From positions 111,350 through 175,349 of the forward strand of contig PAHY01000042.1 of the NCBI GenBank assembly GCA_002705055.1: a DNA stretch of 64,000 bases. Reading direction: 5' to 3'. A model generated the notes under the pieces. That model ran no database searches and was not told the DNA's origin. It saw only the letters and a list, made by a program, of their open reading frames with translations. The translations under genes were made by a program, and so were the position numbers. Below, in pieces: positions 17,152 to 60,663 of this stretch (position 1 is the first letter of the stretch; each line of letters opens with the position of its first letter). This DNA is from Planctomycetota bacterium. GTDB taxonomy: Bacteria > Planctomycetota > UBA1135.

Positions 17152-17831
17152 GCCGCCCGCCGCCGCTGCCCTTCAAAGTGCAGCTGGCGGTCGGAGTGCA
17201 GGAAGGGAATCGGCGTCGGCGCGGGCCCGGGACGGCGCACGCCTTCTCCCCAGAGCCGCAGCGCGAGTTCGACCCAGGCCGGATCAAACTGGCTGCCGGC
17301 GCCGCTCGCCAGCACCTTGAGCGCTTCGCGACGGCCGCTTGGGCGTCGATATGCGGTGTGCATGCTGAGCGCGTCCAGGGTGTCAGCGATCAGCACGATG
17401 CGCGCGGTAGGCGGGATGTCGTCGGCCCGCAGACCATCCGGCGAGCCAGTGCCGTCCCAGTGCTCGCGCGCATTGCGAATCGCCTCGACCAGCGGATCAC
17501 CGGGCGGAAAGTAGGGCCTCAGCAGCGATTCGCCGCAGGTCGTCGCCATGTGCACGATCTCCCACTCCTGGCGGTCGAGCGGTCCCGGCTTCTCGAGGAT
17601 GGACACAGGCACCACCAGCTTGCCGAGGTCGTGCAGGTAGCCGGCCAGAAAGACCTGTTCGAGCTCTGGCCGCGCCAGGCGGTGTGAGAACTCGGCCAGC
17701 TGCAGGGCCAGAGTGGCGACACGGCGCCCGTGGGCGGCCGTCGCGGGATTGCGCTCCTCAAGCGCCTGGACCAGGGCCTGGACCGGTGCTGGAAGGAGCC
17801 GCAGACATGGAGAAATCGGGGCAGATCGCAT
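17148..17831 (-). CDS. Stand-alone HD-GYP domain protein with degenerate motifs
   Basis: HGRRVA, LHDLGK, ILEKPGPL, EHWDGTGSPDGL, IADTLDAL, AGSQFDP. Start position uncertain. Confidence 0.82.
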   Translation of the reverse strand: MRSAPISPCLRLLPAPVQALVQALEERNPATAAHGRRVATLALQLAEFSHRLARPELEQVFLAGYLHDLGKLVVPVSILEKPGPLDRQEWEIVHMATTCGESLLRPYFPPGDPLVEAIRNAREHWDGTGSPDGLRADDIPPTARIVLIADTLDALSMHTAYRRPSGRREALKVLASGAGSQFDPAWVELALRLWGEGVRRPGPAPTPIPFLHSDRQLHFEGQRRRAA

Positions 17832-17883
17832 AAAGGTGCGGCTCTCCCTCCTCGGCTGCCCCGGGCCGCACTTAAGGCGCGGC

Positions 17884-18864: not shown

Positions 18865-18990
18865 GTTGGGAAACCGGCCTCGCTCATCAGTCTAGAGCAA
18901 CGGTCCCCGAGATTCTCGCTTGATGGTCGAACGAGCTTGATCGGGTAAACTGAACGGCCGTCTTCTCGACGCCCCCTGCACGAGATCACG

Positions 18991-48032: not shown

Positions 48033-48461
48033 TTGCCCACCGCCCAAGCACGCCGTCGCGCCCTGGTCGAGATTCTCGAACAGGGCGACGCCCAGAGCCA
48101 GGCCGAGATCCTCGACGCCCTGGCTGACGCGGGCCATCCCACGACGCAGCCGGTCGTCAGTCGCGACCTGCGCGCGCTCGGCGCGATGAAGGCGGATGGG
48201 CGCTACCTGCTGCCGCAGGAAGAGCGGGTCACCCCGCTCGAGTCGCTCGCCACGCTGCTGCGCGACGCCCGCGCTGCTGGCTCGAACATGGTGGTCGTGG
48301 TCTGCGAGCCGGGCGCCGCCAGCGCGATCGCCCGTGCCCTCGAAGCCGAAGGTGATCTGCCGATCCTCGGGACGGTCGCCGGGGACGACACCGTGTTCGT
48401 CGCCACCGCCAGCCGCCGTGAGGGCGACCGCGTCCGCAACCGGGTCCTCGCCCTCGTCTAG
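48033..48461 (+). CDS. argR: Arginine repressor
   Basis: SQAEI...TQPVVSRDL, PGAASAIA, GTVAGDDT. Confidence 0.92.
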   Translation: MPTAQARRRALVEILEQGDAQSQAEILDALADAGHPTTQPVVSRDLRALGAMKADGRYLLPQEERVTPLESLATLLRDARAAGSNMVVVVCEPGAASAIARALEAEGDLPILGTVAGDDTVFVATASRREGDRVRNRVLALV

Positions 48462-48485: not shown

Positions 48486-49691
48486 ATGCGCATTCTGCTC
48501 GCCTACTCTGGCGGTCTCGACACCTCCTATCTCGTTGCCAAGCTGAGCCGGGAAGGTCATGAGGTCGTCGCCTGCACCATCGACTGCGGCGGCTTCGATG
48601 AGGCGGAACGTCTCACGATCGCCGAACGCGCCCAGCTCTACGGTGCGAAGCAGCACCTGTTTCTGGAGGCGCGCGCGATCATGTTCGAACGGGTGCTGCG
48701 CTGGCTGATCGCCGCCAACGTCTTGCGCGGACGGGTCTACCCGCTGTCGGTCGGCGCCGAGCGCGGCCTGCAGGCGGAGCTGCTCGCTGCGCACGCCGTG
48801 GAGCACGGCTTCGACGCCCTCGCCCATGGCTGCACGGCTGCCGGCAACGACCAGGTCCGCTTCGACGCCGCGCTGCGCGTGATCGCCCCGCAGGTTCAGG
48901 TGCTCGCCCCGATTCGCGACGAAGCGCCGAGCCGCGAGGAGCAGACCGCCTGGCTGGAGGCGCAGGGCCTGCCGCTTCCCCAATCGGGTGGGCGGTTCTC
49001 GATCAACGCCGGCCTGTGGGGGCTCACCCTCGGCGGCGGCCCGCTGCTTCAAGAGGACGGCGAGTTTCCCGAGGATGGCTGGGTCTGGACGCAGCCTCAG
49101 GCAGACGCACCGCAGTCCGTCACGGTCAGCTTCGAAGGCGGCGTCCCCTGCGCGCTCGACGGTGTACCGATGGATCCGGTCGCGCTGATCGAAACGCTGA
49201 ATGAACGCGCCGGTGCGGCCGGGGTCGGTCGCGGCTTCCACCTCGGCGACACGGTGCTGGGCATCAAGGGCCGCATCGCTTTCGAGGCTCCGGCCGCGAT
49301 GGTCCTGCTCGAAGCGCACCGCGAACTTGAGAAGCTGGTGCTGACCGAGGATCAGCGCTTCTGGAAGGACCACCTCGGCGAGGTCTACGGCCGCCATCTG
49401 CACCAGGGCCGCTTCCATGATCCGCTGCTGCGTGATCTTGAGGCGATGTTCCGCAGCAGCCAGAGCCGGGTCAGCGGCTGGGCCAAGCTCAGCCTCGTCG
49501 GCGGCCAGGCCCAGGTCGTGGCCATGCAGTCGCCGCACTCGATGATGCGCGCCAGCGACGCGGCCTACGGCGAACGCGCCGCGACCGATGCCGACGCCGC
49601 GGGCCTGCGCACCTTCGCCCGTGTCCTGGCTGAACCCGCTGCGCTGCACGCCCGGGCCGGCCAACTGCAAGAGCATGAGGCGCTGACATGA
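48486..49691 (+). CDS. argG: Argininosuccinate synthase
   Basis: LAYSGGLDTS, YPLSVGAER, HGCTAAGNDQVRF, FSINAGLWG, GIKGRIAFEAP. Confidence 0.95.
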   Translation: MRILLAYSGGLDTSYLVAKLSREGHEVVACTIDCGGFDEAERLTIAERAQLYGAKQHLFLEARAIMFERVLRWLIAANVLRGRVYPLSVGAERGLQAELLAAHAVEHGFDALAHGCTAAGNDQVRFDAALRVIAPQVQVLAPIRDEAPSREEQTAWLEAQGLPLPQSGGRFSINAGLWGLTLGGGPLLQEDGEFPEDGWVWTQPQADAPQSVTVSFEGGVPCALDGVPMDPVALIETLNERAGAAGVGRGFHLGDTVLGIKGRIAFEAPAAMVLLEAHRELEKLVLTEDQRFWKDHLGEVYGRHLHQGRFHDPLLRDLEAMFRSSQSRVSGWAKLSLVGGQAQVVAMQSPHSMMRASDAAYGERAATDADAAGLRTFARVLAEPAALHARAGQLQEHEALT

Positions 49692-50761
49692 GGCGCGTCA
49701 CCGTCAACAAGATCGCTTCGATCGCCCAACGGCTGGCCCTGCGCAAGCAGGTCGTGCTGGGGCCGGACATCCCGGCTCAGACCGGCACGGTGGTGGTCGG
49801 TCGCGTGCTGACCAGCAAGACCACCTACAACAAGCTGGAGGACATCACCGGCCGCATGACTGAACTGCGGCCCGGCGATCTGATCGTCGGCGCGCTCGGC
49901 GCGCGTCACGCCCTGCACGGCTACTCCGGTCGCGTGCCGGAGCGGGTCCAGGTGGGCGACCGCCTGCAGCTGCTCAACATCGGCGGTGTCCTGGGCGTGG
50001 GCGCCAGCCCGGCCCCGGGCTTAGGCGCGCCGCACGAGGTCGAGGTGCTGGGCTGCGTCCAGCAGTTTCATGGCCTCGACCGCGGGGTCGGGCGACCTGC
50101 GAACATCGCAGATGCCGCCCTGGAGAAACTGCCTCTGCCGGCCCAGCTGCCGCCGGTTCTGACGCTGCTCGGCACCTCGATGGACGCCGGCAAGACCACG
50201 GCCGCCGCCGTGATCGTCGGCGGGCTGACGCGCCGCGGCCTGCGGGTTGCAGGCGGCAAGCTGACCGGCGTTTCACTGCGCCGCGACATCCTGCAGATGG
50301 CCGATGCCGGCGCCGATCCGGTCAGCCTGTTCACCGATTTTGGCGTGGTGACCTCCAGCCCGGAGAACGCTCCGCCGACCGCGCGCGCCATCCTCGCGCA
50401 CCTGGCTGAATCGGAGCCTGATCTGATCGTGCTGGAAATGGGCGACGGCCTGCTGGGCACCTATGGCGTGCAGGCCATCCTTGACGCGCCGGACCTGCGG
50501 GCGGCGACGACTGCGATCGTGCTCTGCGCCCAGGATCCGGTCGGCGCATGGGGCGCACAGCAGCTGCTGGCCGATCGTCACGAGGCCCGCGCCTCGCTCG
50601 TCTCCGGACCGGTCACGGACAACCCGGTGGGCCGCGAGTTCTGCGAGAAGCAGCTGGGCCTCCCGGCGTACAACGCGCTGCTCGCTCCCGCCGAGCTGGT
50701 GGACGGCTGCCTCGATGCCCTGGAACTCCCGCGCGGCGCGGTCGCCGTGCCCTCCCCATGA
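49688..50761 (+). CDS. DUF1611/DgcN-like P-loop-fold protein; candidate alternative N-acylglutamate synthase
   Basis: GTSMDAGKTT, GGKLTG...RD...DAGA...FTDFG..TS, DLIVLEMGDG. ATGA overlaps with both argG and argC. The family call is from motif recognition and the function is inferred. Confidence 0.7.
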   Translation: MRRVTVNKIASIAQRLALRKQVVLGPDIPAQTGTVVVGRVLTSKTTYNKLEDITGRMTELRPGDLIVGALGARHALHGYSGRVPERVQVGDRLQLLNIGGVLGVGASPAPGLGAPHEVEVLGCVQQFHGLDRGVGRPANIADAALEKLPLPAQLPPVLTLLGTSMDAGKTTAAAVIVGGLTRRGLRVAGGKLTGVSLRRDILQMADAGADPVSLFTDFGVVTSSPENAPPTARAILAHLAESEPDLIVLEMGDGLLGTYGVQAILDAPDLRAATTAIVLCAQDPVGAWGAQQLLADRHEARASLVSGPVTDNPVGREFCEKQLGLPAYNALLAPAELVDGCLDALELPRGAVAVPSP

Positions 50762-51834
50762 GCAGCGCGGCGCACCCGCTGTTCCTGCTCGGAGCACGCG
50801 GCCTGCTGGCCGGCGAGTTTCTGCGCCTGCTGGATGGTCACCCCTGCCTGCGTTTGGCTGGCGCCTACGCGCGCTCGGCCGAGGGCGCTCTCGGCCAATC
50901 GCATCCGCACCTGGCGGGAGCTCTAGCCGCGACCCCGCTCGAGGAAGCGAGCGCGCTCGCGGATGCGCTGAAGACGACCGCGCAGGCCGGCGGCCCGGCC
51001 CCGGTCCTGCTGCTCGCGCTGCCGCACGGAGCGTCGGCGCCCTGGTGGGCGGAACACCGCGCCGCCCTGCAGGCCGCCTGCCCGGCGCTGGTCGTCGTCG
51101 ATCTGTCCGCCGACTTCCGACTCGAATCGGCCGAGGCCTACCAGGCCAGCTACGCGCTGCAGCACCCCTGCCCGGATGAGTTTGGCCAGTGGATCTACGG
51201 TCTACCTGAACTGCACCCGGTCCCGGAGGGCAGCAAACGGATCGCGGTCCCCGGCTGCTTCGCCACGGCGATGCAGCTCGCGGTCGTGCCGATGGCCCGC
51301 GCGGCGCAGATCGAAGCGACCGAGCCCATCATCGTGCACGGCGTCACCGGCTCGAGTGGCAGCGGTGCCCAGGCCAAGGCCGGGACGCACCACCCGCACC
51401 GGGCGATGAACTTCCATGCCTACGGCCTGCAGGGGCATCGCCACGAAGCTGAGCTGCTGAGCCCGCGCAATGCCCTTCCGCAGGGCTGCGCGCTCGACTT
51501 CACCCCCCACTCCGCGCCGCTCAGTCGCGGCATCCACCTGCACGCGGTCATGCAGGCCAGCGCGCAGGCCGACGAGCAGCCGCAGGCCGTGCTCGAGACC
51601 TTCTGCGCCGATAAGCCCTTCCTCGAAGCGGTTCGCCAGGCCCCGCAGCTGCGCCACATCGCCGGCAGCCAACGCGTGCAGCTGCACGCCTACCGGCGCG
51701 GCAGGCTGCTGCACGTCCTGGTGGCTCTGGACAACACCATCAAAGGCGGCGCCGGCCAGGCGCTGCAGGCTCTCAACCTCGCTCTCGGACTCCCCGAAAC
51801 GACTGCGCTTCCAAGCCACGGGCTTGGCTACTGA
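50758..51834 (+). CDS. argC: N-acyl-gamma-glutamyl-phosphate reductase
   Basis: LALPHG, DLSADFRL, YGLPEL, PGCFAT, GSSGSG, HRHEAE, DNTIKGGAGQA. Confidence 0.93.
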   Translation: MSSAAHPLFLLGARGLLAGEFLRLLDGHPCLRLAGAYARSAEGALGQSHPHLAGALAATPLEEASALADALKTTAQAGGPAPVLLLALPHGASAPWWAEHRAALQAACPALVVVDLSADFRLESAEAYQASYALQHPCPDEFGQWIYGLPELHPVPEGSKRIAVPGCFATAMQLAVVPMARAAQIEATEPIIVHGVTGSSGSGAQAKAGTHHPHRAMNFHAYGLQGHRHEAELLSPRNALPQGCALDFTPHSAPLSRGIHLHAVMQASAQADEQPQAVLETFCADKPFLEAVRQAPQLRHIAGSQRVQLHAYRRGRLLHVLVALDNTIKGGAGQALQALNLALGLPETTALPSHGLGY

Positions 51835-51836
51835 TC

Positions 51837-52976
51837 ATGCCGACTCTTCAGGAATATCCCGCGTACGCCCGGCTGCAGGGCAGCCTGCTCGGTGCCAGCG
51901 AAAGCCTGCTGTCCTGGAGCGACGGCCGCGAGCTGCTGGATCTCTACGGCGGCCACTGCGTCAACGCGCTCGGCGCCGGCGACCTCGGATTGGGCCGCGC
52001 GCTGGAGCGCCAATGGCAGCAGCTCAGCTTCGCGACCAATCTGGTGGATCATCCCGGCCGCGCCCCCTTCTACGAGGCCTGGCAGAAGCTGATGCCGGAG
52101 GGCGACTGGCAGGTCTTCGCCAGCAACAGCGGCGCCGAAGCCAATGAGAACCTGCTCAAGATGGCGCTGGCGGCCACCGGCCGCAGCCGAGTCGTCTGCT
52201 TCGAGGGCGGCTTCCACGGCCGCACCGCGGCGGCCGCCGCCGTCAGCGATGGAGCGAACGGCTTCCCGCTGACCCCTTTCGATGTGCTTCGTCTGCCGTG
52301 GGGCACGACGGCGGGCATCGACTCCAGCGTCGGCGCGGTGATCCTCGAGCCGATCCAGTCACTCGGCGGCGTGGTCGAGCCCCCGGCCGGCTTCCTCGAG
52401 GAGCTGCGCGCGCTTTGCGATGCCACAGGCGCCTGGCTGATTTTCGACGAGGTGCAGACCGGCCCGGGTCGCCTCGGAACGCCTTGGGCCTCGCAGCACT
52501 ACGGCGTGATTCCGGATGCCTTCAGCTCGGCCAAGGGATGCGCAGGCGGCTTCCCGCTTGGCCTCAGCTTCGCCCAGAGCGAGCGGGCCGCGAGCGTGCC
52601 CGCCGGCTTGTGCGGCTCGACCTTCGGCGGCGCGCCGCTCGCCTTAGCGGCGGCGACCCATGTCGCACAGCGCGTGGCGCAGCCGGAGTTCCTCGATCAC
52701 GTCAGCAAGCTCGGCCGCGCCTTCCACGGCCTCGTCGGCACCGGGCCGGTGGTCGGAGTCCGCGGCGTGGGCCTCTTGATTGGGCTCGAGCTCGCTCCGG
52801 GCCTCAGCGCCAAGGAAGCGCGCGACGCGCTGCTCGAACAGGGCATCCTGACCGCGACCTGCTGGAACCCGCAGGTGCTGCGCATCAGTCCGCCGCTGAC
52901 GCTTGCCGGCTCGGCAGTGGGTCAGCTTGCTCAGGCGCTCTGTCATCTGCCCTACCCCAGCCCGGCAGGTTCCTGA
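51837..52976 (+). CDS. argD: N-acylornithine aminotransferase (class III PLP)
   Basis: DLYGGHCV, NSGAEANE, FHGRT, EPIQSLGG, DEVQTG, AKGCAGGFP, GSTFGG. Confidence 0.92.
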   Translation: MPTLQEYPAYARLQGSLLGASESLLSWSDGRELLDLYGGHCVNALGAGDLGLGRALERQWQQLSFATNLVDHPGRAPFYEAWQKLMPEGDWQVFASNSGAEANENLLKMALAATGRSRVVCFEGGFHGRTAAAAAVSDGANGFPLTPFDVLRLPWGTTAGIDSSVGAVILEPIQSLGGVVEPPAGFLEELRALCDATGAWLIFDEVQTGPGRLGTPWASQHYGVIPDAFSSAKGCAGGFPLGLSFAQSERAASVPAGLCGSTFGGAPLALAAATHVAQRVAQPEFLDHVSKLGRAFHGLVGTGPVVGVRGVGLLIGLELAPGLSAKEARDALLEQGILTATCWNPQVLRISPPLTLAGSAVGQLAQALCHLPYPSPAGS

Positions 52977-53980
52977 TGAGCACGACCACTCCTCTCGCCC
53001 CCGGGCTGGACCATCTCGGCAACTTGCCTGCCGCGGAGATTCAGCGGCTTGCCGATCGCGCCAACGCCCTGCGCACGGGCGCGGCCCCGCAGCGCTTCGC
53101 CGGCAAGGCGCTCGGTCTGTTCTTCCTCAATCCCTCGCTGCGCACCTCCGCGTCCTTCCAGCGCGCCGCGGCGCGCCTGGGCCTCGAGTTGGTCCAGCTC
53201 CGCGGAGATGGCGTCTGGGGGCTCGAGCATCAGGACGGCGTCGTCATGGATGGCACCACCGCCGAGCACCTGCGCGAGGCGGCCCCGGTCCTGGGGCGCT
53301 ACGTGGATCTGCTGGCGGTGCGCGCCTTTCACGGAGCCGGCAGCTTCGAGGAGTGCCGTCAGGATCCGATCATGCAGGGCTTCCGCCGCTGGGCGGGGGT
53401 TCCGGTCATCAACATGGAATCCGCGCGCTGGCACCCCTGCCAAGCGCTGGCCGACTGGGCGACGCTGGATCAGCACGCGATCCCGAAGCGGGCCAAGTTC
53501 GTGCTGAGCTGGGCCTGGCACCCGAAGCCGCTGCCCCACGCGGTGCCCAACTCGACCCTTTGCATGGCGGCACAGCGCGGGATGGACGTCGTCCTGCTTT
53601 GCCCGCCTGGGCTGGAGCTGCACGACGAGGTGCTGGCCGAGGCCGAACAGCTGGCGACCACGCACGGCGGCAGCCTGACGGTCACGCATGATCGCGAGGA
53701 AGCCTTGCACGGCGCCGCCGCCGTCTACGCTAAGTCCTGGGGCAGCCAGCAGCACTGGGGTGACCTGGAGAGCGAGACGGCGTTCCGCGCCGCACTGCGC
53801 GACTGGTGCGTCACGCCCGCGTGGCTCGGCGATTCCGCGCGCTTCATGCACTGCCTGCCCATCCGCCGCAACGTGGTGGCGAGCGACGCCGTTCTGGACG
53901 GCCCGCAGTCGATTGTCCTGGATCAGGCGGAGCACCGCCTGCACGCTCAGACCGCCCTCTTGGAGAGCCTCCTGTCATGA
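52976..53980 (+). CDS. argF: N-acylornithine carbamoyltransferase (ArgF', AOTCase/SOTCase family)
   Basis: FLNPSLRT, VMDGTTAEH, HPCQALAD, WAWHPKPLPHAVPNS, HCLPIRRN are ArgF' motifs rather than canonical OTCase motifs. Confidence 0.93.
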   Translation: MSTTTPLAPGLDHLGNLPAAEIQRLADRANALRTGAAPQRFAGKALGLFFLNPSLRTSASFQRAAARLGLELVQLRGDGVWGLEHQDGVVMDGTTAEHLREAAPVLGRYVDLLAVRAFHGAGSFEECRQDPIMQGFRRWAGVPVINMESARWHPCQALADWATLDQHAIPKRAKFVLSWAWHPKPLPHAVPNSTLCMAAQRGMDVVLLCPPGLELHDEVLAEAEQLATTHGGSLTVTHDREEALHGAAAVYAKSWGSQQHWGDLESETAFRAALRDWCVTPAWLGDSARFMHCLPIRRNVVASDAVLDGPQSIVLDQAEHRLHAQTALLESLLS

Positions 53981-54861
53981 AAGAACTCGTTCGCGCAGCC
54001 GCCCACGTGCGGTATCACCAGGGTGCCGTGATGGTGCTGAAAATCGGCGGGGCCTGCCTGCGCAAGCCGCGCTTCCAGCGCGCGCTCGCCGAGCAGATCG
54101 CCACCGTGCAGGCGCTCGGCGGCCGACCGGTCATCGTCCATGGCGGCGGCCCGCAGATTGACGTGGTGCAACGCAGCCTCGGCGAAGAACCGCGGATGGT
54201 CGACGGCCGCCGCGTGACCTCGCCGGTCGCGCTGCGCGCGCTGCGCATGGCCACCGCCGGCGAGCTGAACGGCGAGCTCGCCGCCGCGATCACCACCGCC
54301 GGCGCCAAGGCCGTGGGCGTCTGCGCCGCCGACGCCGGGATCGTGACCGCGCGCAAGCGGCCGCCGCGCGAGACCAGCGAGGGCGAGGTCGACTTCGGCG
54401 CGGTCGGCGACGTCGCCAGCGTTGATCCGGCGCCGCTGCTGGGCCTGATCGAGCAGGGCGTGACCCCGGTGGTCTGCCCGCCGGTCGGCGACGGCGCCGG
54501 CGGCTTCCTCAACCTCAACGCCGATACGCTGGCCGCCGCGCTGGCCTGTGCACTCGACGCCGCCAAGCTGGTGCTGCTGACGGGCGAAGCGGGGATCCTG
54601 GCCGACCCGGCTGATCCCGAGTCGGTGCTGTCGGTGCTGGGCCTCGCCACGCTCGACGCGCTCGAGCAGGAAGGCGCGCTGCAGAAGGGCATGAAGGTCA
54701 AGGCGGCTGCGGTGCGCGCGGCGCTGACCGGCGGCGTGCCCAAGGTGCACATCGTTTCGGGCGTGGACCCGGAAGCGCTGCTCGTCGAGCTCTACACCAA
54801 CCACGGCTCGGGCACGCTGGTCACTGCCGACGAGCCGGCCCAGGCCCCGGCCCACGCATGA
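53977..54861 (+). CDS. argB: N-acylglutamate kinase
   Basis: VLKIGG, IVHGGGPQI, GRRVT, LNLNADT, GMKVK. No fused acetyltransferase domain. Confidence 0.94.
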   Translation: MKELVRAAAHVRYHQGAVMVLKIGGACLRKPRFQRALAEQIATVQALGGRPVIVHGGGPQIDVVQRSLGEEPRMVDGRRVTSPVALRALRMATAGELNGELAAAITTAGAKAVGVCAADAGIVTARKRPPRETSEGEVDFGAVGDVASVDPAPLLGLIEQGVTPVVCPPVGDGAGGFLNLNADTLAAALACALDAAKLVLLTGEAGILADPADPESVLSVLGLATLDALEQEGALQKGMKVKAAAVRAALTGGVPKVHIVSGVDPEALLVELYTNHGSGTLVTADEPAQAPAHA

Positions 54862-55967
54862 GCCTGCCCCACCTCGACGAGGCCGCGCAGCTGCTCGCCG
54901 AGCTGGTGCGGATCCCGAGCATCTCGGGCGACGAAGCCGCGGCCGCCGACCACGCCCAGGCCTGGCTGAGCGCGCGCGGCGTGGACAGCGAGCGCCTGGG
55001 GCACACCGTCGTCGCGCGTGTCGAGGGCAGTCAGCCCGGCCCGACCCTGCTGCTCAACTCGCACCTCGACACCGTGCCGGCCGGCAATCAGTGGACCGTC
55101 GACCCGCACGCGGGCGTCTGGCAGGACGGTCGGCTGACCGGCCTCGGCGCCAACGACGCCGGCGGCTGCGTGGTCGCGATGATGACGGCGACCGCGCGGC
55201 TCGCAGCCCAGCCGGATTTCGCTGGCACGCTGCTGCTGTCGCTGCACGCCGAGGAGGAAACCAACAACCGGGGTATGGGCGACTTCCTGGCTGCCTATGG
55301 CGCGCCGGACGCGGCGATCACCGGCGAACCCACCGGCCTGGACGTCGTGCGCAGCCAAGCCGGCCTGGCCGTCTTCACGCTGCAGTGGCACGGCAAGAGC
55401 TGCCACGCCGCGCACGTCGCGCGGGTCGAGCACGACAACGCGCTGCTGCGCGCCGCGCGCGAGCTGGCGACGCTGCCGGACTGGCTCCACCCCGGCGAGG
55501 AACATCCGCTGCTTGGGAAGTCGACCCTCGCCGTCACCGCACTGCACGCCGGCGGCCCGCACAACAAGGTGCCGGACCTCGCGGAAGCGCTCGTGGATGG
55601 CCGGCTGGTCCCGCCGACCACAGCGGCTGATTGCCTGGCGCAGCTGCAGGAGAAGCTGCCGAGCGCCGAGGTCGCGATCCGTTCGGAACGACTGGGCCCG
55701 ATCGACACGCCGGAAGTCGATCAGCTGGTGCAGGTCGCGCTGGAAGCGGCCGGACGCTCGGAAGCGGTGGGCTCGACCACGCTTTCCGACATGGCGCTGC
55801 TCCCGCCCGGCGTGCCGGCGGTCAAGGTCGGCCCTGGGCAGACCGCGCGTTCGCACACTCCAGACGAGTACCTGCTCCTCGACGAGCTGGCCGCCGGCAT
55901 CGCCTTCTACGAGGCCGTCGTCCCCGCCTGGTTCCAGGCCCTCCACCCGCAATCGATCTCGAGCTGA
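54858..55967 (+). CDS. argE: M20 deacylase (ArgE-like; N-acylcitrulline deacylase in this context)
   Basis: LLLNSHLDTV, GLGANDAGG, AEEE, GEPT, GKSCHAAH, SHTPDEY. Confidence 0.88.
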   Translation: MSLPHLDEAAQLLAELVRIPSISGDEAAAADHAQAWLSARGVDSERLGHTVVARVEGSQPGPTLLLNSHLDTVPAGNQWTVDPHAGVWQDGRLTGLGANDAGGCVVAMMTATARLAAQPDFAGTLLLSLHAEEETNNRGMGDFLAAYGAPDAAITGEPTGLDVVRSQAGLAVFTLQWHGKSCHAAHVARVEHDNALLRAARELATLPDWLHPGEEHPLLGKSTLAVTALHAGGPHNKVPDLAEALVDGRLVPPTTAADCLAQLQEKLPSAEVAIRSERLGPIDTPEVDQLVQVALEAAGRSEAVGSTTLSDMALLPPGVPAVKVGPGQTARSHTPDEYLLLDELAAGIAFYEAVVPAWFQALHPQSISS

Positions 55968-57166
55968 TGACCGAACACCACCGCCCCATCTGGGATCGCG
56001 GCGAAGCGATCGACCCCGAGATGCTGTCCTACACCATCGGCGACGATTGGCTGCAGGATCAGCGCCTGGTCGAGCACGATATCGCCGGTTCTCTGGCTCA
56101 CGTGGCCGGGCTGGTGCACGCCGGTCTGCTTGAGGACGAGGCCGGGCAACGCATCTCGAAGGGGCTGCGCGAGCTGCTGGACGAGTATCGGGCCGGGTCC
56201 TGGCAGCTCACCCCGGCCGACGAGGACGTGCACTCGGCGGTGGAGCGGTTGCTGACCGCCAAGATCGGCGAGGACGGCGGCCGCATGCACCTCGGCCGTT
56301 CGCGCAACGATCAGGTCACCGTCGACGTCCGGCTGTGGCTGCGCGCGGCGAGCGCCGACGCCATCGCGGCCACCGAGCAGCTCATCGCTTCGCTGCAGGA
56401 GCTGGAGTCAGCGCACGGCAGCCTGCCGCTGCCGGGCTACACCCACCTGCGCCGCGCCATGCCGTCCTCAATCGGCGATTGGCTGGGCGCGCACCGGGCC
56501 TCCTTCGCGGCCGACCTGGACGCGCTGCGGGACGCGCAGAAACGCGGCCGCTTCTGCCCGCTGGGTAGCGGCTCCGGCTACGGCATCCCGCTTCCGCTAG
56601 ACCGCGGCTTCGTCGCCGAGCAGCTCGGCTTTGACGGCCCGGAGGAGCCCGTCACCGCGGTGCAGCATGGCCGCGGCCGCCCCGAGCTGGCCTACCTGAG
56701 CGCGCTCGAAGGCCTGGCGATCTCGCTGGGCAAGCTGGCCGCCGACCTGTGGCTTTATTCCAGCGCCGAGTTCGGCTTCGTCGTGCTGCCGACCGAGTTC
56801 ACGACCGGCAGCAGTCTGATGCCGCAGAAGCGCAACCCGGACCTAATCGAACTCCTGCGCGCGCAGTGCCGCCAGGTCCTGGCCGACCGCGCCGCTCTGC
56901 TGGCCGTGATCCAAGATCTGCCCAGCGGCTACCACCGCGACTTCCAGCTGATCAAGCCGCCGCTCTTCCGCGGCCACGACCGCGCGCTGGCCTCGGTGCG
57001 GATCACCGCGCGCCTCGTGCCAGCACTACAGTTCGATACCGAGACCCTGCAGCAGGCCGCCGCCGACCCGCAGCTCGCCGCCACCGCCAAGGCTCTGCAA
57101 GCCGCCGCCGAAGGCGGCCAAAGCTTCCGCTCTGCCTATCGCGAAGAGGCTGGCTCCGAAAACTAG
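55967..57166 (+). CDS. argH: Argininosuccinate lyase (short form)
   Basis: EDVHSAVE, HLGRSRNDQV, PGYTHL, GSSLMPQKRNPD, SGYHRD. Confidence 0.95.
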   Translation: MTEHHRPIWDRGEAIDPEMLSYTIGDDWLQDQRLVEHDIAGSLAHVAGLVHAGLLEDEAGQRISKGLRELLDEYRAGSWQLTPADEDVHSAVERLLTAKIGEDGGRMHLGRSRNDQVTVDVRLWLRAASADAIAATEQLIASLQELESAHGSLPLPGYTHLRRAMPSSIGDWLGAHRASFAADLDALRDAQKRGRFCPLGSGSGYGIPLPLDRGFVAEQLGFDGPEEPVTAVQHGRGRPELAYLSALEGLAISLGKLAADLWLYSSAEFGFVVLPTEFTTGSSLMPQKRNPDLIELLRAQCRQVLADRAALLAVIQDLPSGYHRDFQLIKPPLFRGHDRALASVRITARLVPALQFDTETLQQAAADPQLAATAKALQAAAEGGQSFRSAYREEAGSEN

Positions 57167-57175: not shown

Positions 57176-58189
57176 CTAGCGAGCACGCTGAGAGCGCTGG
57201 AAAGCAAAGACTCCATCGCGAATTGCATGGAGCTGAGCAACTGCAGCGGAGCGCGCCCATGCAATGCGCTTCGTACTAGGCTTGCCTTCGTAGGGTCGAA
57301 ACGAGCTTGCGAGTTCTTCCCAACTCGACTCGACCGCCATGCGATTTCGAGGACTCAACTCCAATCGATCGATGGAGTACCGGAATCTCCGAAGCTCTCC
57401 TAACTCATCGCGCCCGAGCCCTTCTGGCAGAGCCTCCACCTGCACAATCAACCAGTCCAGCGCGGCCAGGGGGTCAACAAGAGCCCAGAGGCCCCAAAGC
57501 TCGCCACAGCGACGCCCCCCCAGCACACTTGCATGAGCGGGCCCAAAGAGATCGACAAGGACCTGGGGATGCAACCCACGAAGGGAGTCCCGAAAGAACT
57601 GCCATTCCTCCGGCAATCGACAATCGTCAGCTTCCGGCAAGAATACATGGACAGCCTCCTGTCGAAGCTCGGGCACATGAAGGAGACCGACCAGCCAGTA
57701 GAACTCGCGTAAAAGCACCTCATCCCGTTGTCGCGGCCCCGAGCCTTCGCGGAGGGCGCCCCAGTCCTGAATTGCTTTGCGGTAGAGCGGCAAATGCTCG
57801 ACCGACTTGGTTCCGTAGTGGAGACCAATCGTGGTCCAGCGGCCTCGGCGCTTCTCCAGAAATACCAGGCGCGACTCTCCCGGCTGATAGTCGGGGGGTT
57901 GCGGGCAGATGATGTTGAAGCTCGCAAGCACCGAGATGCGATCCCCTTCCGGATCACCGCGCAGGACTTCGAGAACACGCAGGTCCACCTGCGCGTCGCT
58001 AGGCCCCCATGGCCCGCCCCGTTCCTTCTTTCCATTGATGGACTCCACATCCACCACAGCGACCAAATCAGCGGTGTGCAACAACTCAAGCAGTGGAACC
58101 GGCGCAATCGGATAGACCAAAACTTCCTCTCCGTTGGCGTGAAGAGAAGCGCAATGCGCCAGAACGAAAACCGAGAGCAGACTTGCCAT
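57176..58189 (-). CDS. Hypothetical exported protein with atypical, lower-GC composition
   Basis: 337-codon ORF with AAGGAG close to the ATG and a signal-like N-terminus. Visibly more AT-rich than its flanks. Confidence 0.65.
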   Translation of the reverse strand: MASLLSVFVLAHCASLHANGEEVLVYPIAPVPLLELLHTADLVAVVDVESINGKKERGGPWGPSDAQVDLRVLEVLRGDPEGDRISVLASFNIICPQPPDYQPGESRLVFLEKRRGRWTTIGLHYGTKSVEHLPLYRKAIQDWGALREGSGPRQRDEVLLREFYWLVGLLHVPELRQEAVHVFLPEADDCRLPEEWQFFRDSLRGLHPQVLVDLFGPAHASVLGGRRCGELWGLWALVDPLAALDWLIVQVEALPEGLGRDELGELRRFRYSIDRLELSPRNRMAVESSWEELASSFRPYEGKPSTKRIAWARSAAVAQLHAIRDGVFAFQRSQRAR

Positions 58190-58313: not shown

Positions 58314-59522
58314 CTAGGAAATCACGCCGTGCTTCTTGCCGACCTTGACGAAGGCGGCGACGGCGCGTTCGAGGTGTTCCTGCTCGTGGCCGGCGGAGAT
58401 TTGGACGCGGATGCGGGCCTGGCCGCGCGGCACGACCGGGAAGCTGAAGCCGATCACGTAGATGCCTTCGTCGAGCATGTCGCGGGCCACGTCGGCGGCC
58501 AGCTTGGCGTCGCCGAGCATGATCGGCACGATGGCGTGCACGCCCTCCTTGATGGCGAAGCCGGCCTCGGTCATGGCCTGGCGGAACCACATCGTGTTGC
58601 GCTCCAGCTTGTCGCGCAGCTCGGTCGTGGCCGAAAGGCGATCGAAGACCGCGATGCTGGCGGCCACGATCGGCGGCGCGACCGAGTTCGAGAACAGATA
58701 GGGCCGCGAGCGGTTGCGCAGGGTGTCGACGATCACCTTGGAGGCGCTGGTGTAGCCGCCGGAAGCGCCGCCCAGCGCCTTGCCGAGCGTCGAGGTGATG
58801 ATGTGCACCCGCCCCATCACGCCGCAGTGCTCGTGGGTGCCGCGACCGGTCGCGCCCATGAAGCCGCTCGAGTGACTGTCGTCGACGTGGACGATCGCGC
58901 CGTACTTCTCGGCCAGATCGCAGATCTCGCCCAGCTTGGCGACGTAGCCGTCCATCGAGAACACCCCGTCGGTGGTAATCATGATCCGGCGCGCGTTGCC
59001 CTCGACCGCTTCCTTCAGGCAGTTCTCCAGCTCGGCCATGTCCGAGTTGGCGTAACGGAAGCGCTTGGCCTTGCACAGCCGCACGCCGTCGATGATCGAG
59101 GCGTGGTTGAGCGCATCGGAGATGATCGCGTCTTCCGGGCCGAGCAGGGTCTCGAACAGACCGGCGTTGGCGTCGAAGCAGCTGGTGTAGAGGATCGTGT
59201 CCTCAAAGCCGAGGAACTCCGAGATCTTGGCCTCGAGCTGCTTGTGGATGTCCTGCGTGCCGCAGATGAAGCGCACCGAGGACATGCCGAAGCCATGGGT
59301 ATCCAGGCTCTTGCGCGCGGCTTCGATCAGCGCCGGGTCGTCGGACAGGCCCAGGTAGTTATTGGCGCAGAAGTTGAGCACCTCCTGGCCGGTGGACACC
59401 TTGATCAGAGCGTCCTGCGGCGTGACGATCACGCGCTCTTCCTTGTAGAGGCCCGCTTCGCGGATCTCGTCGAGTTCGGCGGCAAGTTGCGCTTCGAAGG
59501 GCGTCTGCACGGCTTCGGTCAT
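58314..59522 (-). CDS. kbl: Glycine C-acetyltransferase (2-amino-3-ketobutyrate CoA ligase)
   Basis: [49 protein letters not shown]. Confidence 0.96.
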
Positions 59523-59553
59523 GCGACCGATTCTAGCAGCGCCCCGGCCCGGC

Positions 59554-60627
59554 CTAGCCGGCGGACGGATCCAGGACCACCTTGTGCGCCTCGCCCTTGT
59601 CGAGCAGCGCGATGCCCTCCTCGAAGGAGGACAGCGGCAGCTGGTGGGTGACGATGTGGTCGAGGTCGAGGCCCAGCTTGAGCATCGACAGCATCTCGTC
59701 CCAGGTGTCGAACATGCGCCGACCGACCACCCCCTTGAGGGTGAGTCCTTTGAAGATGACCCGCTCGCTGAAGCGATCGATCAGCAGATCGCGGCCGGCA
59801 GGAATGCCCAGCATGACCATCTCGCCGCCCGGGTAGAGCACCTCGAGGCCATCGTTGATCGCCGGCACCGCGCCGCTCATTTCGAGCACCACGTCGACGC
59901 CGCCGCCGCTGAACTCGCGGACCTTGCCGGCGAAGTCCGGCTCGCTGAGCGGATTGACGATGTGAATCGGCACGCGGTCGCCCATGCGGGCCGCCCACTC
60001 GTGGGCGCGCTCGAGGTGCCCGGGCGAGACCTCGGAGATTGTCAGCGACGCGGCACCCTTGAACTGCACCACCGCCGCGGCCATCGCGCCGATGGCGCCG
60101 TAACCGGACAGCAGCACGTGGCGCCCTTCGACCGTGTTGGCTGCCTGCACGGTGTGCACCGCATTGCCCAGCGCGTCAAGCAGAGCGCCGATGTGCGGCG
60201 GCACCGTTTCCGGGTCGAGCCGCACCAGGTTGGAAGCCGGTACCACGACCGACTCGGCGAAGCAGCCGTTCTGCTGCAGGCCGGCGATCTTGGTGTGCTC
60301 GCAGACGTGGAAATCGCCGCGCAGGCAGGCGCGACAGTGGCCGCAGACGATGTGCATCTCGGCGGAGACGTAGTCGCCTTCCGACCAGGTCTCGACACCA
60401 TCACCCACGGCGTCGATGTAACCGCAGAACTCGTGGCCGATCGTGACCGGCGGCCGCACCAGATGCGAGATCGACTCGTCCCAGTGGTAGATGTGGCGGT
60501 CGGTGCCACAGATCGCCGTGCGCGCCACGCGCACACGGACCTCGCCCGGCCCCGGTGTGGGAACCTCGACATCATCGCCGTAGGAGACCCCGCGGGCCTC
60601 CGGGCGCACCATCTGGATTGCACGCAT
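59554..60627 (-). CDS. tdh: L-threonine 3-dehydrogenase
   Basis: [25 protein letters not shown]...[14 protein letters not shown]. Adjacent to kbl. Confidence 0.93.
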
Positions 60628-60663
60628 GCGCTTTCGATTCTACCGCCGGCGGCGGCTTAGCTT

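What the first reader, a model, noticed from the sequence alone, without database searches (positions are those of the whole stretch)
49688..50761. DUF1611/DgcN-like gene fills the missing ArgA slot of the arginine operon: candidate new N-acylglutamate synthase
Seen: the operon argR-argG-X-argC-argD-argF'-argB-argE-argH covers every step from N-acylglutamate to arginine. It has no argA, argJ or GNAT gene, and ArgB has no acetyltransferase fusion. X (357 aa) overlaps argG and argC by ATGA on both sides and carries GTSMDAGKTT (50171-50200), GKLTG and EMGDG motifs. Known: a linear ArgF'/ArgE pathway discards the acyl group, so it needs a de novo N-acylglutamate synthase. As I recall, the DUF1611 member DgcN is an acetyl-CoA-dependent D-glutamate N-acetyltransferase. 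Inference: X acylates L-glutamate and is a non-homologous replacement for ArgA, built on a P-loop-like fold. The family assignment is by eye, and I cannot confirm whether this subfamily has already been described.
Basis: partly seen in the sequence, partly recalled or inferred. Interest (0 to 1): 0.9.

Follow-up and report, generated by a model that had tools for sequence, protein, structure and literature searches.

The report
Predicted succinylglutamate synthase replacing ArgA
A conserved gene of unknown family inside a complete arginine operon most likely makes the first pathway intermediate in place of the usual ArgA/ArgJ enzymes, an idea recently printed as an untested prediction for its relatives.

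Summary
X (49688-50761, 357 aa) lies between argG and argC with ATGA overlaps, in a tightly coupled operon argR-argG-X-argC-argD-argF'-argB-argE-argH. The only step without a gene is glutamate N-acylation.

The MAG (85% complete) shows no ArgJ and no ArgA over cut-off.

X reaches no Pfam or NCBIfam cut-off; DUF1611 scores 13.6 bits against 25. Its C-domain is a dethiobiotin-synthetase/DUF1611-like P-loop fold. Its all-beta N-domain has no solved relative.

All 54 related loci keep argG and/or argC beside X. In 301 genomes of the phylum, 1 of 102 X-carriers has ArgJ, against 120 of 199 others.

ArgF' has Ala at the Glu92 specificity site, so the intermediates are probably succinylated.

Price et al. 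(PLoS Genet, 12 Nov 2026) already predict this role for Steroidobacter ACG33_RS14135, without experiment. X is 49% identical to a Steroidobacteraceae homologue.

So X is a new member of a predicted, untested kind. The acyl donor is open. X keeps the Walker-A Thr and second Lys that BioD has and DUF1611 lacks, so ATP-driven ligation of succinate is a live rival to succinyl-CoA transfer.

The parts
48033..48461 (+). argR, arginine repressor (TTG start as listed)
   Evidence: PF01316 E 3.5e-11 and PF02863 E 3.2e-15
48486..49691 (+). argG, argininosuccinate synthase; its stop overlaps the X start (ATGA)
   Evidence: TIGR00032 290.6 bits, cut-off 268.2; junction read
49688..50761 (+). X, 357 aa: predicted N-succinyl-L-glutamate-forming enzyme with two domains
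   Evidence: ORF; no family over cut-off; AF2 model pLDDT 96.4, pTM 0.93; arg linkage in 54 of 54 loci
49688..50131 (+). X N-terminal all-beta domain (residues 1-148); holds near-invariant E51, R73, G71, G81, P84, G100
   Evidence: DSSP of the models; conservation; no solved relative: best VIA Z 3.3, 0 of 48,161 chains at Z>=5; Foldseek best E 0.48
50171..50200 (+). Walker-A P-loop GTSMDAGKTT (G168 and K169 invariant, T170 in >=90%)
   Evidence: aligns to the BioD P-loop and to DUF1611 GxDCxxGKM
50255..50269 (+). GKLTG motif (K191 and G194 invariant); K191 aligns with the second Lys of dethiobiotin synthetase (cKPvqtG)
   Evidence: DUF1611 has TGQTG here, without Lys
50435..50449 (+). EMGDG motif (E250 invariant, D245 near-invariant upstream); aligns with BioD vEGaGG and DUF1611 EGQG
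50758..51834 (+). [quoted passage not shown]
   Evidence: TIGR01850 255.7 bits, cut-off 233.6
51837..52976 (+). argD, N-acylornithine aminotransferase
   Evidence: PF00202 E 6.7e-66; acetylornithine transaminase models are the best NCBIfam hits, all below their cut-offs
52976..53980 (+). argF', N-acylornithine carbamoyltransferase with Ala at the Glu92-equivalent site (MDGTTAEH), which predicts succinyl specificity
   Evidence: NF003384 377.6 bits, cut-off 288; alignment to X. campestris AOTCase variants 3l02, 3l05 and 3m4n; start codon
53977..54861 (+). argB, N-acylglutamate kinase, 294 aa, kinase domain only
   Evidence: TIGR00761 187.3 bits, cut-off 151.3; start codon
54858..55967 (+). argE, M20 deacylase (N-acylcitrulline/ornithine)
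   Evidence: PF01546 and PF07687; ArgE/DapE NCBIfam models match below their cut-offs
55967..57166 (+). argH, argininosuccinate lyase
   Evidence: TIGR00838 295.4 bits, cut-off 279.5; start codon

Best explanation
X is the enzyme for the first committed step of a linear arginine pathway that runs through N-succinylated intermediates. It converts L-glutamate to N-succinyl-L-glutamate. ArgB, ArgC, ArgD, ArgF' (succinylornithine-type), ArgE, ArgG and ArgH from the same operon then carry that product to arginine.

X replaces ArgA, ArgJ and the GNAT-type synthases without being homologous to them. It belongs to the family that Price et al. [quoted passage not shown]

**Proposed working (inferred).** The C-terminal dethiobiotin-synthetase/DUF1611-like P-loop domain binds the nucleotide part of the acyl-activating cofactor through K169, T170, K191 and E250. 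The family-specific all-beta N-domain (E51, R73) helps hold glutamate in the cleft between the domains.

**Acyl donor (unresolved).**
- First choice: transfer from succinyl-CoA, about 0.4. The only characterised relative, DgcN, is named an N-acetyltransferase, and to my recollection the known ArgA analogues use acyl-CoA.
- Second choice: ATP-driven ligation of free succinate, about 0.3 (see the rivals).

**Shown:** gene, operon, conservation, phyletic pattern, fold, motifs.
**Inferred:** substrate, product and donor.
For: 1. **One missing step.** The operon encodes every step after N-acylglutamate and no known enzyme for the first step. The whole MAG has no ArgJ and no ArgA over cut-off. The 15 GNAT ORFs reach no N-acetylglutamate synthase model.

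2. **Linkage.** Of 54 related loci, 45 have argG-X-argC. Two have only argG and 7 only argC, each because the contig ends. None contradicts. The linkage survives operon rearrangement in Acidobacteriota and Proteobacteria MAGs.

3. **Phyletic complementarity** in 301 genomes of the phylum:
   - 102 genomes have strong X (best E<=1e-100); 1 of these has ArgJ.
   - 120 of the other 199 have ArgJ.
   - ArgA over cut-off occurs in 4 genomes; all 4 have ArgJ and none has X.
   - The split recurs inside families. In f2, X is in G071, G174 and G240, and ArgJ is in G004, G096 and G256. In f24, 4 genomes have strong X and 5 others have ArgJ.
   - In 5 X-carrying genomes of other phyla, ArgJ is 0 of 5 and ArgA over cut-off 0 of 5.

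4. **Fused gene calls.** P0392 is X+ArgC (TIGR01850 276 bits, over cut-off). P0208 is X + an ArgC C-terminal domain. P0164 is X + an amino-acid kinase whose best hit is argB.

5. **Succinyl chemistry.** ArgF' has Ala where X. campestris AOTCase has Glu92. Of 36 ArgF' in the fetched loci (35 X-bearing loci plus X-less L076), 28 have Ala, 7 Val, 1 Gln and none Glu. The switch rule is quoted from Shi et al. 2007 as cited in GapMind 2026.

6. **Published parallel.** GapMind 2026 Appendix 2 reaches the same conclusion for ACG33_RS14135 from operon context, exclusion with ArgA, Foldseek similarity to 7XRJ and ArgF' residue 92. X is 49% identical (303 bits, full length) to the arg-cluster homologue of a Steroidobacteraceae MAG. 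The family occurs in 40 of 41 genomes sampled from that MAG's family.

7. **Fold.** The C-domain matches DUF1611 TM0796 (Z 17.0), BioD (16.1), the CTP synthase synthetase domain (16.0) and DgcN 7xrj (15.0).

8. **Contact with ArgB.** Complex prediction ArgB+X gave weak support only: score 0.36, best control 0.00. That mark was reached by 58 of 80 solved complexes and 2 of 110 mismatched pairs. At 0.60 or under it was reached by only 7 of the 80 and by both mismatches. Runs agree in at least 83% of contacts and partner pLDDT is at least 89.
Against: - No enzymatic, genetic or expression data exist for any family member; GapMind 2026 lists it only as 'predicted'.
- The MAG is 85% complete, so an ArgA or ArgJ on unassembled DNA cannot be excluded for this genome. 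The pattern across 102 genomes makes that unlikely as a general explanation.
- A short single-domain GNAT synthase among the 15 GNATs cannot be excluded by HMM scores alone.
- The ArgJ anticorrelation would also arise for any component specific to the linear ArgE/ArgF' pathway. Related genomes are not independent samples.
- 79 of 301 genomes have neither strong X nor ArgJ. At least one of them (G216, L076) has a succinyl-type ArgF' cluster without X, so a further solution exists.
- G104 has both X and ArgJ.
- Homology to DgcN is remote and limited to the P-loop domain.
- I could not compare X directly with A0A127FCT3.
Confidence: 0.7

Rival explanations
1. X makes the same product by different chemistry. 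It is an ATP-dependent succinate:L-glutamate ligase (N-succinylglutamate synthetase). It would activate free succinate as an acyl phosphate on the P-loop, as dethiobiotin synthetase, CobB/CobQ and CTP synthase activate their substrates. The glutamate amino group would then attack. Succinate released by ArgE could be recycled without CoA.
For: - X keeps the full nucleotide-triphosphate motif set of dethiobiotin synthetase. These are Walker A GKT (K169 invariant, T170 in >=90%), a second invariant Lys (K191) that aligns with BioD's 'cKPvqtG' Lys, and invariant E250 that aligns with BioD's 'vEGaGG'.
- The catalytic roles of those BioD residues are recalled knowledge, not a call result.
- True DUF1611 proteins have GKM in place of GKT and TGQTG in place of the Lys motif.
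- The profile of the X family hits BioD chains at E 1e-4 to 8e-4. That is at least as good as DUF1611 by Pfam (E 0.043) or by hhalign (E 3.9e-4).
- BioD and the CTP synthase synthetase domain tie with DUF1611 in fold score, Z 16.1 and 16.0 against 17.0.
- X lacks the DUF1611 N-domain.
Against: - To my recollection, every characterised N-acylglutamate synthase uses an acyl-CoA or an acetyl-ornithine donor.
- The closest characterised relative by family, DgcN, is named an N-acetyltransferase (PDB title; GapMind 2026).
- A P-loop can also bind the 3'-phospho-ADP part of CoA.
Confidence: 0.3
2. X is not the synthase. It is an accessory SIMIBI-type NTPase of the linear pathway, for example a metal-delivery or maturation factor for the M20 deacylase ArgE, or a regulator or scaffold. 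An unrecognised GNAT elsewhere makes N-acylglutamate.
For: - The fold list includes metallochaperone NTPases: HypB Z 14.8 and UreG Z 14.1.
- A paralogous subfamily sits next to an M20 peptidase (L079) or is fused to one (P0393).
- The genome has 15 GNATs of unknown substrate.
- The ArgJ anticorrelation fits any linear-pathway-specific part.
Against: - X stays between argG and argC in clusters without a detectable argE: L052-L054, and S. denitrificans according to GapMind 2026.
- The invariant residues include no Cys or His.
- Fusions of the arg-linked subfamily are to ArgC and ArgB, not ArgE.
- This reading leaves step 1 without a conserved candidate in 102 genomes.
Confidence: 0.1
3. X makes N-acetyl-L-glutamate, and the pathway runs through acetylated intermediates, as the NCBIfam name of ArgF' suggests.
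For: - ArgF' passes the NCBIfam model named N-acetylornithine carbamoyltransferase.
- DgcN is named an acetyltransferase.
Against: - ArgF' has Ala, not Glu, at the Glu92-equivalent position, and its best PDB match is the E92A variant 3l02.
- None of 36 ArgF' in the fetched loci has Glu there.
- GapMind 2026 reports A, P, S or V in 90% of 70 such ArgF' proteins.
Confidence: 0.07

Closest known systems
[quoted passage not shown] Source: Price et al., GapMind 2026, PLoS Genet 22(11):e1012372. I read Appendix 2 of the bioRxiv version in full and section 12 of the published paper.
   Same: - It is a hypothetical protein inside arg clusters, in genomes without ArgA.
- It has weak Foldseek similarity to 7XRJ.
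- The neighbouring ArgF' has A, P, S or V at position 92.
- X is 49% identical over its full length to a Steroidobacteraceae arg-cluster homologue.
- X meets each of the paper's criteria that I could test.
   Different: - X comes from a Planctomycetota-like MAG, in an operon that also has argE.
- I made no direct comparison with A0A127FCT3.
- The paper assumes an acyltransferase by analogy. It does not discuss the domain structure, the BioD-like motifs, ArgJ complementarity or the fusions.
DUF1611 (PF07755), including DgcN, a D-glutamate N-acetyltransferase (PDB 7XRJ), TM0796 (2G0T) and Ava_3511 (2OBN)
   Same: - The C-terminal P-loop domain shares the fold: Z 17.0, 15.4 and 15.0.
- Three motifs are collinear: P-loop, xTG and ExGxG.
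- DgcN acts on the amino group of a glutamate, according to the names.
   Different: - X is below the Pfam cut-off, 13.6 against 25 bits. True DUF1611 proteins score 180-250 bits.
- hhalign probability is only 35.5%.
- X has GKTT and KLTG where DUF1611 has GKM and TGQTG.
- The N-domain of X is all-beta, with no DUF1611_N hit.
- Both families co-occur in G002, G022, G074 and G099, so they are separate functions.
Dethiobiotin synthetase BioD and the related ATP-dependent C-N ligase domains (CTP synthase synthetase domain, CobB/CobQ)
   Same: - The P-loop domain shares the fold: Z 16.1 and 16.0; Foldseek E 7.8e-6 to 3of5.
- The P-loop GKT, the second Lys and the Glu motif align.
   Different: - There is no family-level sequence membership; only local profile hits at E about 1e-4.
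- X has an extra 150-residue N-domain.
- The substrate and the ATP use of X are untested.
ArgA, ArgJ and the Bacteroidetes GNAT 'ArgA2' (BT3761), an N-succinylglutamate synthase. Source: Ashniev et al. 2022, PMC9026213; I read passages only.
   Same: - The proposed reaction is the same, and for ArgA2 the succinyl product is the same.
- The gene is likewise encoded inside arg operons together with a succinyl-type ArgF'.
   Different: - There is no sequence or fold relationship. X has no GNAT, ArgJ or amino-acid-kinase domain.
- BT3761 has genetic support; X has none.

Membership tests
[quoted passage not shown] | [quoted passage not shown] | not testable with these tools
   The A0A127FCT3 sequence could not be fetched. 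By proxy, X against the arg-cluster homologue of a Steroidobacteraceae MAG (L050) gives 49% identity and 303 bits over the full length. The family is present in 40 of 41 genomes of that MAG's family.
[quoted passage not shown] | The gene lies inside an arginine biosynthesis cluster | tested here: met
   The window has argG-X-argC with ATGA overlaps. Of 54 loci, 45 have both neighbours, 9 have one neighbour at a contig end, and none contradicts.
[quoted passage not shown] | No ArgA-type synthase in the same genome | tested here: met
   The own MAG (85% complete) has nothing over the TIGR01890 cut-off. None of 102 strong-X genomes has ArgA over cut-off. The figure is 0 of 5 in other phyla.
[quoted passage not shown] | The neighbouring ArgF' has A, P, S or V at the Glu92-equivalent position | tested here: met
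   The window has Ala. The 36 fetched ArgF' (35 X-bearing loci plus X-less L076) have 28 Ala, 7 Val and 1 Gln.
[quoted passage not shown] | Weak structural similarity to DgcN (7XRJ) | tested here: met
   Foldseek E 1.4e-4, rank 44. VIA Z 15.0, rmsd 3.1 over 180 residues.
DUF1611 (Pfam PF07755 C-domain plus the Rossmann-like N-domain) | Score over Pfam's gathering threshold for PF07755 | tested here: not met
   13.6 bits against a cut-off of 25, covering residues 156-188 only. True members in the same phylum score 180-250 bits.
DUF1611 (Pfam PF07755 C-domain plus the Rossmann-like N-domain) | DUF1611-type N-terminal domain | tested here: not met
   No N-domain family appears at E<=10. Residues 1-148 are all-beta. 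The best solved match has Z 3.3. That the DUF1611 N-domain is Rossmann-like is recalled.
DUF1611 (Pfam PF07755 C-domain plus the Rossmann-like N-domain) | Family motifs GxDCxxGKM, TGQTG and EGQG (invariant in alignment A2) | tested here: not met
   The motifs align position for position but differ: GTSMDAGKTT, GKLTG and EMGDG.
DUF1611 (Pfam PF07755 C-domain plus the Rossmann-like N-domain) | Shared fold of the P-loop domain / remote homology | tested here: met
   VIA Z 17.0 (2g0t) and 15.4 (2obn), tied within about 1-2 Z with BioD and CTP synthase. hhalign probability 35.5%, E 3.9e-4, 182 columns.
DgcN (D-glutamate N-acetyltransferase of the DgcN-DgcA pathway) | Acetyl-CoA-dependent acetylation of D-glutamate | not testable with these tools
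   This needs an enzyme assay. The primary paper (Yu et al. 2023) is not held.
DgcN (D-glutamate N-acetyltransferase of the DgcN-DgcA pathway) | Catabolic gene context with dgcA | tested here: not met
   All neighbours are arginine biosynthesis genes. The flanks encode TPR, TrkA and TrkH proteins, an unknown ORF and an aminotransferase.
Dethiobiotin synthetase-like ATP-dependent ligases (BioD) | Walker A GKT, second Lys after beta-2, and a Glu in an ExGxG strand | tested here: met
   Alignment to M. tuberculosis BioD. K169, K191 and E250 are invariant and T170 is in >=90% of 71 sequences.
Dethiobiotin synthetase-like ATP-dependent ligases (BioD) | Family-level sequence membership (Pfam AAA_26/BioD models) | tested here: not met
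   X has no hit. A relative, P0155, scores 19.3 bits against a cut-off of 27.
ArgA / ArgJ / GNAT N-acylglutamate synthases | GNAT, ArgJ or amino-acid-kinase+GNAT domains | tested here: not met
   X has none of these domains.

The most novel reading that the evidence does not exclude
X is a CoA-independent, ATP-dependent N-succinylglutamate synthetase (succinate + L-glutamate + ATP). It would be a dethiobiotin-synthetase-type C-N ligase joined to a beta-domain with no solved structural relative. Arginine biosynthesis in about a third of the sampled Planctomycetota genomes, and in Steroidobacteraceae and some Acidobacteriota, would then start with a reaction class not known for this pathway. Succinate released by ArgE would be recycled directly.
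Probability: 0.3. Interest if true: 0.75.

Novelty: new member of a known kind. Interest (0 to 1): 0.45.

Why it matters
The first step of arginine biosynthesis is a textbook reaction. To my recollection, its known catalysts (ArgA, ArgJ, GNAT forms) all use acyl-CoA or an acetyl-ornithine donor on GNAT or ArgJ folds.

This family would be a fourth, structurally unrelated solution. It is widespread:
- 102 of 301 sampled genomes of this phylum;
- 40 of 41 genomes sampled from the family of the Steroidobacteraceae MAG;
- also Acidobacteriota.

Without it, automated metabolic reconstructions are likely to score these organisms as lacking the first step of arginine synthesis.

The function has been predicted in print but never tested. 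This window adds:
- a second phylum;
- the ArgJ complementarity;
- the fused gene calls;
- a domain model;
- a concrete mechanistic question (succinyl-CoA transfer or ATP-driven ligation) that a simple assay can settle.

Tried and rejected
**Fusions from long open frames: rejected.** One search listed long 'open frames' (700-1100 aa) around X in several genomes. I took them for possible X-ArgC or ArgG-X-ArgC fusions. In three fetched cases (L096-L098), X and argC lie in different frames. Only the gene calls P0392, P0208 and P0164 are kept as candidate fusions.

**Errors corrected.**
- My first argB query was out of frame and found nothing. It was corrected; argB is present in 47 of 54 loci.
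- A regular expression for the ArgF' site was too strict. It was replaced by tblastn column extraction.

**Searches that led nowhere.**
- PF04768 (NAT domain) in the own genome gave no hit, but the control rang in none of 14 genomes, so the result is uninformative.
- The 601-aa ORF at the end of the X-less arg cluster of G216 showed no relation to the X family by hhalign (probability 0.5%) and no Pfam family.
- A single-sequence search of X against PDB sequences gave nothing meaningful.
- The first literature search returned only unrelated 'DGCN' papers.
- 'N-acetylglutamate synthase' + 'DUF1611' found 0 papers.
- 'Planctomycet' + 'argJ' + 'N-acetylglutamate synthase' found 2 irrelevant papers.
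- Only the GapMind 2026 paper names ACG33_RS14135 or A0A127FCT3 in the library searched.

**Sources I could not see.**
- Yu et al. 2023 on DgcN is not held. DgcN's cofactor and mechanism therefore rest on the PDB title, on the GapMind wording and on recall.
- The published GapMind paper puts its rationale in S1B Text, a supplement I could not open. I read the equivalent Appendix 2 of the bioRxiv version.

**Not attempted.** Ligand preference (ATP against succinyl-CoA) could not be modelled. Expression data were not sought.

Full report
**1. Observation**

The ORF at 49688-50761 (+) encodes 357 aa. Its ATG overlaps the argG stop, and its stop overlaps the argC ATG; both are ATGA. The three quoted motifs sit at residues 162-171, 190-194 and 250-254.

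Pfam and NCBIfam identify the neighbours as follows:
- ArgR and ArgG;
- ArgC;
- ArgD;
- an N-acylornithine carbamoyltransferase (NF003384, 377.6 bits, cut-off 288);
- ArgB, with a kinase domain only;
- an M20 ArgE;
- ArgH.

Reading the junctions gives argF' 52976-53980, argB 53977-54861 and argH 55967-57166. Every junction from argG to argH overlaps or leaves 2 nt, so the genes form one translationally coupled operon.

The flanks encode a TPR protein, TrkA and TrkH upstream. Downstream lie an unknown ORF and a class I/II aminotransferase. No acyltransferase is nearby.

The window lies in a MAG of 3.85 Mb in 64 contigs, 85.31% complete.
- ArgJ (PF01960) has no match in it.
- TIGR01890 (ArgA) matches only kinase domains and two weak GNAT stretches, all below cut-off.
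- The 16 PF00583 hits (15 over cut-off) are on other contigs.
- None of the 15 ORFs reaches an N-acetylglutamate synthase model.

**2. What X is as a protein**

*Family searches.* X passes no curated family threshold. The best scores are MobB 17.6 bits (cut-off 26.6), DUF1611 13.6 bits (cut-off 25; residues 156-188 only) and CbiA 12.7 bits. NCBIfam gives nothing useful.

*Size of the family.* The family is large and unnamed.
- 1602 relatives at E<=1e-3 among the 8000 candidates scored; every source name among the 120 listed is 'hypothetical protein'.
- 1395 relatives among the 50%-identity representatives at E<=1e-3, and 860 at E<=1e-10.
- ESM Atlas neighbours are auto-named 'hypothetical' or 'DUF1611 domain-containing'. 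PF07755 appears on only 11-18% of members where it appears at all.

*Conservation.* In a 71-sequence alignment reaching down to about 28% identity:
- invariant: G33, G100, G168, K169, K191, G194, G208, G219, E250;
- near-invariant (among others): E51, R73, T170, D200, D217, D245, D283.

*Predicted structure.* AlphaFold2 gives a confident two-domain model (pLDDT 96.4, pTM 0.93).

*C-domain (about residues 150-348).* It is a SIMIBI/dethiobiotin-synthetase-like P-loop fold.
- Foldseek's top hits are Ffh/FtsY and BioD (3of5, E 7.8e-6). DgcN 7xrj is only rank 44, at E 1.4e-4.
- The Foldseek-independent VIA search ranks DUF1611 TM0796 first (Z 17.0). BioD (16.1), the CTP synthase synthetase domain (16.0), DUF1611 Ava_3511 (15.4) and DgcN (15.0) follow. 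These are essentially tied.

*N-domain (residues 1-148).* Modelled alone it reaches pLDDT 91.2. It is all-beta and has no solved relative. The best VIA Z is 3.3, and 0 of 48,161 chains reach Z 5. The best Foldseek E-value is 0.48.

*Relation to DUF1611.* I aligned 11 true DUF1611 proteins from genomes of the same phylum. They score 180-250 bits against PF07755 and occur in 25 of 101 genomes, but not in the own genome.
- hhalign against the X family gives probability 35.5% and E 3.9e-4 over 182 columns of the C-domain.
- The three motifs are collinear but differ: GTSMDAGKTT against GxDCxxGKM; GKLTG against TGQTG; ExGDG against EGQG.
- The two families co-occur in G002, G022, G074 and G099.

X is therefore a remote relative of the DUF1611 C-domain, not a member of DUF1611.

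*Relation to BioD.* The X profile also hits BioD chains at E 1e-4 to 8e-4. The P-loop, K191 (against BioD 'cKPvqtG') and E250 (against 'vEGaGG') align.

**3. Genomic evidence for function**

*Gene neighbourhood.* A scan of species-representative genomes returned 54 loci encoding relatives (47-84% identity). Most are Planctomycetota MAGs. Holophagaceae, Solibacteraceae, Steroidobacteraceae and 'Proteobacteria' MAGs also appear.
- 45 loci have argG immediately upstream and argC immediately downstream.
- 2 have only argG and 7 only argC, each because the contig ends.
- None contradicts.
- 19 loci share the window's nine-gene order.
- The argG-X-argC triplet persists where the rest of the operon is rearranged, and in clusters without argE (L052-L054).

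*Phyletic pattern.* I searched 301 genomes sampled evenly from the phylum.
- The X profile matched 109 genomes at E<=1e-10.
- 102 of these have a best E<=1e-100. I set that threshold after seeing a gap between 1e-101 and 1e-81. The other 7 carry only a divergent paralogue or a fragment.
- ArgJ over cut-off is in 121 genomes.
- ArgA over cut-off is in 4 genomes; all 4 have ArgJ and none has X.
- The overlap of strong X with ArgJ is 1 of 102 (G104), against 120 of 199 for the rest. 79 genomes have neither.

The split recurs within families. In f2, three genomes have X, three others have ArgJ and one has neither. In f24, four have strong X and five others have ArgJ. This argues for repeated replacement. 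Related genomes are not independent, however, so I give no weight to the Fisher p-value that the script printed.

Outside the phylum, 5 X-carrying genomes show ArgJ in 0 of 5 and ArgA over cut-off in 0 of 5.

*Fusions.* Three gene calls fuse X to pathway enzymes:
- P0392: X+ArgC, 721 aa; TIGR01850 276 bits, over cut-off;
- P0208: X + an ArgC C-terminal domain;
- P0164: X + an amino-acid kinase whose best hit is argB, at 127 bits against a cut-off of 151.

In G104, X sits between argR and argB.

*Contact with ArgB.* A complex prediction of ArgB with X gave weak support only: score 0.36, best control 0.00. That mark was reached by 58 of 80 solved complexes and 2 of 110 mismatched pairs. At 0.60 or under it was reached by only 7 of the 80 and by both mismatches. 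Runs agree in at least 83% of contacts and partner pLDDT is at least 89. I do not lean on this result.

**4. Which acyl group**

The window's ArgF' aligns best to X. campestris N-acetylornithine carbamoyltransferase variants. These entries differ at chain position 112 (residue 92 plus a 20-residue tag): A in 3l02, S in 3l05 and E in 3m4n. The window has Ala there (MDGTTAEH).

The 36 ArgF' in the fetched loci (35 X-bearing loci plus the X-less L076) have 28 Ala, 7 Val, 1 Gln and no Glu. According to Shi et al. 2007, as cited in GapMind 2026, replacing E92 with A, P, S or V switches specificity to N-succinylornithine. The pathway therefore most likely uses succinylated intermediates, despite the 'N-acetyl' name of the NCBIfam model.

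**5. What is already known**

Price et al., 'GapMind 2026', is held as a bioRxiv version of 2 July 2026 and as PLoS Genet 22(11):e1012372 of 12 Nov 2026. I read Appendix 2 of the preprint in full and section 12 of the published version.

[quoted passage not shown] Its grounds are:
- conserved operon context;
- no co-occurrence with ArgA homologues;
- weak Foldseek similarity to DgcN 7XRJ;
- ArgF' residue 92.

It reports no experiment for this protein. The published rationale is in S1B Text, which I could not open.

I could not fetch A0A127FCT3. However, X is 49% identical (303 bits, full length) to the only hypothetical protein in the arg cluster of a Steroidobacteraceae MAG. The family is present in 40 of 41 genomes sampled from that MAG's family. 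I therefore treat X as an orthologue of the published family.

In the library searched, no other paper names that protein. None links DUF1611 to N-acetylglutamate synthase.

Ashniev et al. 2022 describe the GNAT 'ArgA2' (BT3761) as the Bacteroidetes N-succinylglutamate synthase (passages read). It is the functional analogue and is unrelated in sequence.

**6. Mechanism**

*Shown.* The operon lacks only step 1, and X is the only conserved unassigned gene. X is distributed as a replacement for ArgJ and ArgA would be. It has a nucleotide-binding P-loop domain plus a family-specific domain.

*Inferred.* X forms N-succinyl-L-glutamate (confidence about 0.7).

*Acyl donor.* The donor is open.
- Analogy with DgcN, and (to my recollection) with the known ArgA analogues, favours succinyl-CoA.
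- X retains exactly those residues that BioD-type ATP-dependent C-N ligases have and that DUF1611 lacks: the Walker-A Thr170 and the second Lys191. It also shares Glu250 with both. The catalytic roles of these residues in BioD are recalled, not taken from a call.
- X also lacks the DUF1611 N-domain.
- I therefore give ATP-driven ligation of free succinate about 0.3. That is also the most novel reading.

*Accessory-NTPase reading.* The idea that X is, for example, an ArgE metallochaperone draws support from the M20 association of a paralogous subfamily. Three points speak against it. X persists in clusters without argE. It has no conserved Cys or His. Its fusions are to ArgC and ArgB. I give this reading about 0.1.

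**7. Verdict**

The gene is real, conserved and interesting. The DUF1611 assignment holds only as a remote resemblance. The likely product is N-succinylglutamate.

- the Planctomycetota distribution;
- ArgJ complementarity;
- the fused gene calls;
- the two-domain model, with an N-domain that has no solved relative;
- the BioD-like motif argument, which makes the donor question worth an assay.

Noticed in passing
L079:9037-10068 (G285), L080:8509-9537 (G135), L081 (G002); protein P0393: A divergent paralogous subfamily exists: about 30% identical to X, profile E about 1e-70 to 1e-81. It keeps GTSMxSGKTT, KLTG and the Glu motif but lies outside arg operons. In G285 it follows an M20 peptidase and a flavin reductase. 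P0393 (741 aa) is an M20 peptidase fused to such a paralogue. Four of the 7 genomes that carry only this form (or a fragment) also have ArgJ. This may be an acylation/deacylation pair acting on another amino acid.
   Followed up: partly
L076 (G216:C3), ORF 17209-19014: This genome has neither X nor ArgJ. Its cluster is argB-argH-argG-argC-argD-argF', with Ala at the succinyl-specificity site, followed by a 601-aa ORF. That ORF has no Pfam family and no relation to X (hhalign probability 0.5%). Four genomes of family f82 share the lack of X and ArgJ. A third way of making N-succinylglutamate may be hidden here.
   Followed up: partly
L077 and L078 (G104): This is the one sampled genome with both strong X and ArgJ (12.3 Mb, 87% complete, 3% contamination). 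X lies in argR-X-argB on one contig. The ArgJ match lies on another contig, whose fetched stretch also shows argC, argB and argD hits. Either the genome has two pathways or the bin is mixed.
   Followed up: partly
window 49688-50131 (X residues 1-148): The confidently modelled all-beta N-domain (pLDDT 91) has no solved structural relative. The best Z is 3.3 among 48,161 chains, far below the Z 7-8 that the tool's note calls typical for models without a clear match. It may be a new fold.
   Followed up: yes
table (e.g. G252:C86:8069-8956, G170:C66:10980-11855): ArgB proteins of many X-carrying genomes score 157-184 bits on the kinase half of the ArgA model TIGR01890. The window's own ArgB scores 100.8 bits. 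These kinases look ArgA-like, and their feedback regulation may differ.
   Followed up: no
window 57176-58189 (-) and 59521-60660 (+): Two ORFs of 337 and 379 aa just downstream of the operon have no Pfam family at E<=0.001. They may be spurious frames in 68% GC DNA.
   Followed up: no
G000:C4:35684-36343 (L002): A second amino-acid-kinase-family ORF (311 aa) lies elsewhere in the genome (51.6 bits to the kinase part of TIGR01890). Its identity was not determined.
   Followed up: no
G000:C45:108744-112031 (L066:619-1893): This open frame combines a QueC match (TIGR00364, 200 bits) with a C-terminal GNAT-like stretch. It may be a fusion, or two genes in one frame.
   Followed up: no
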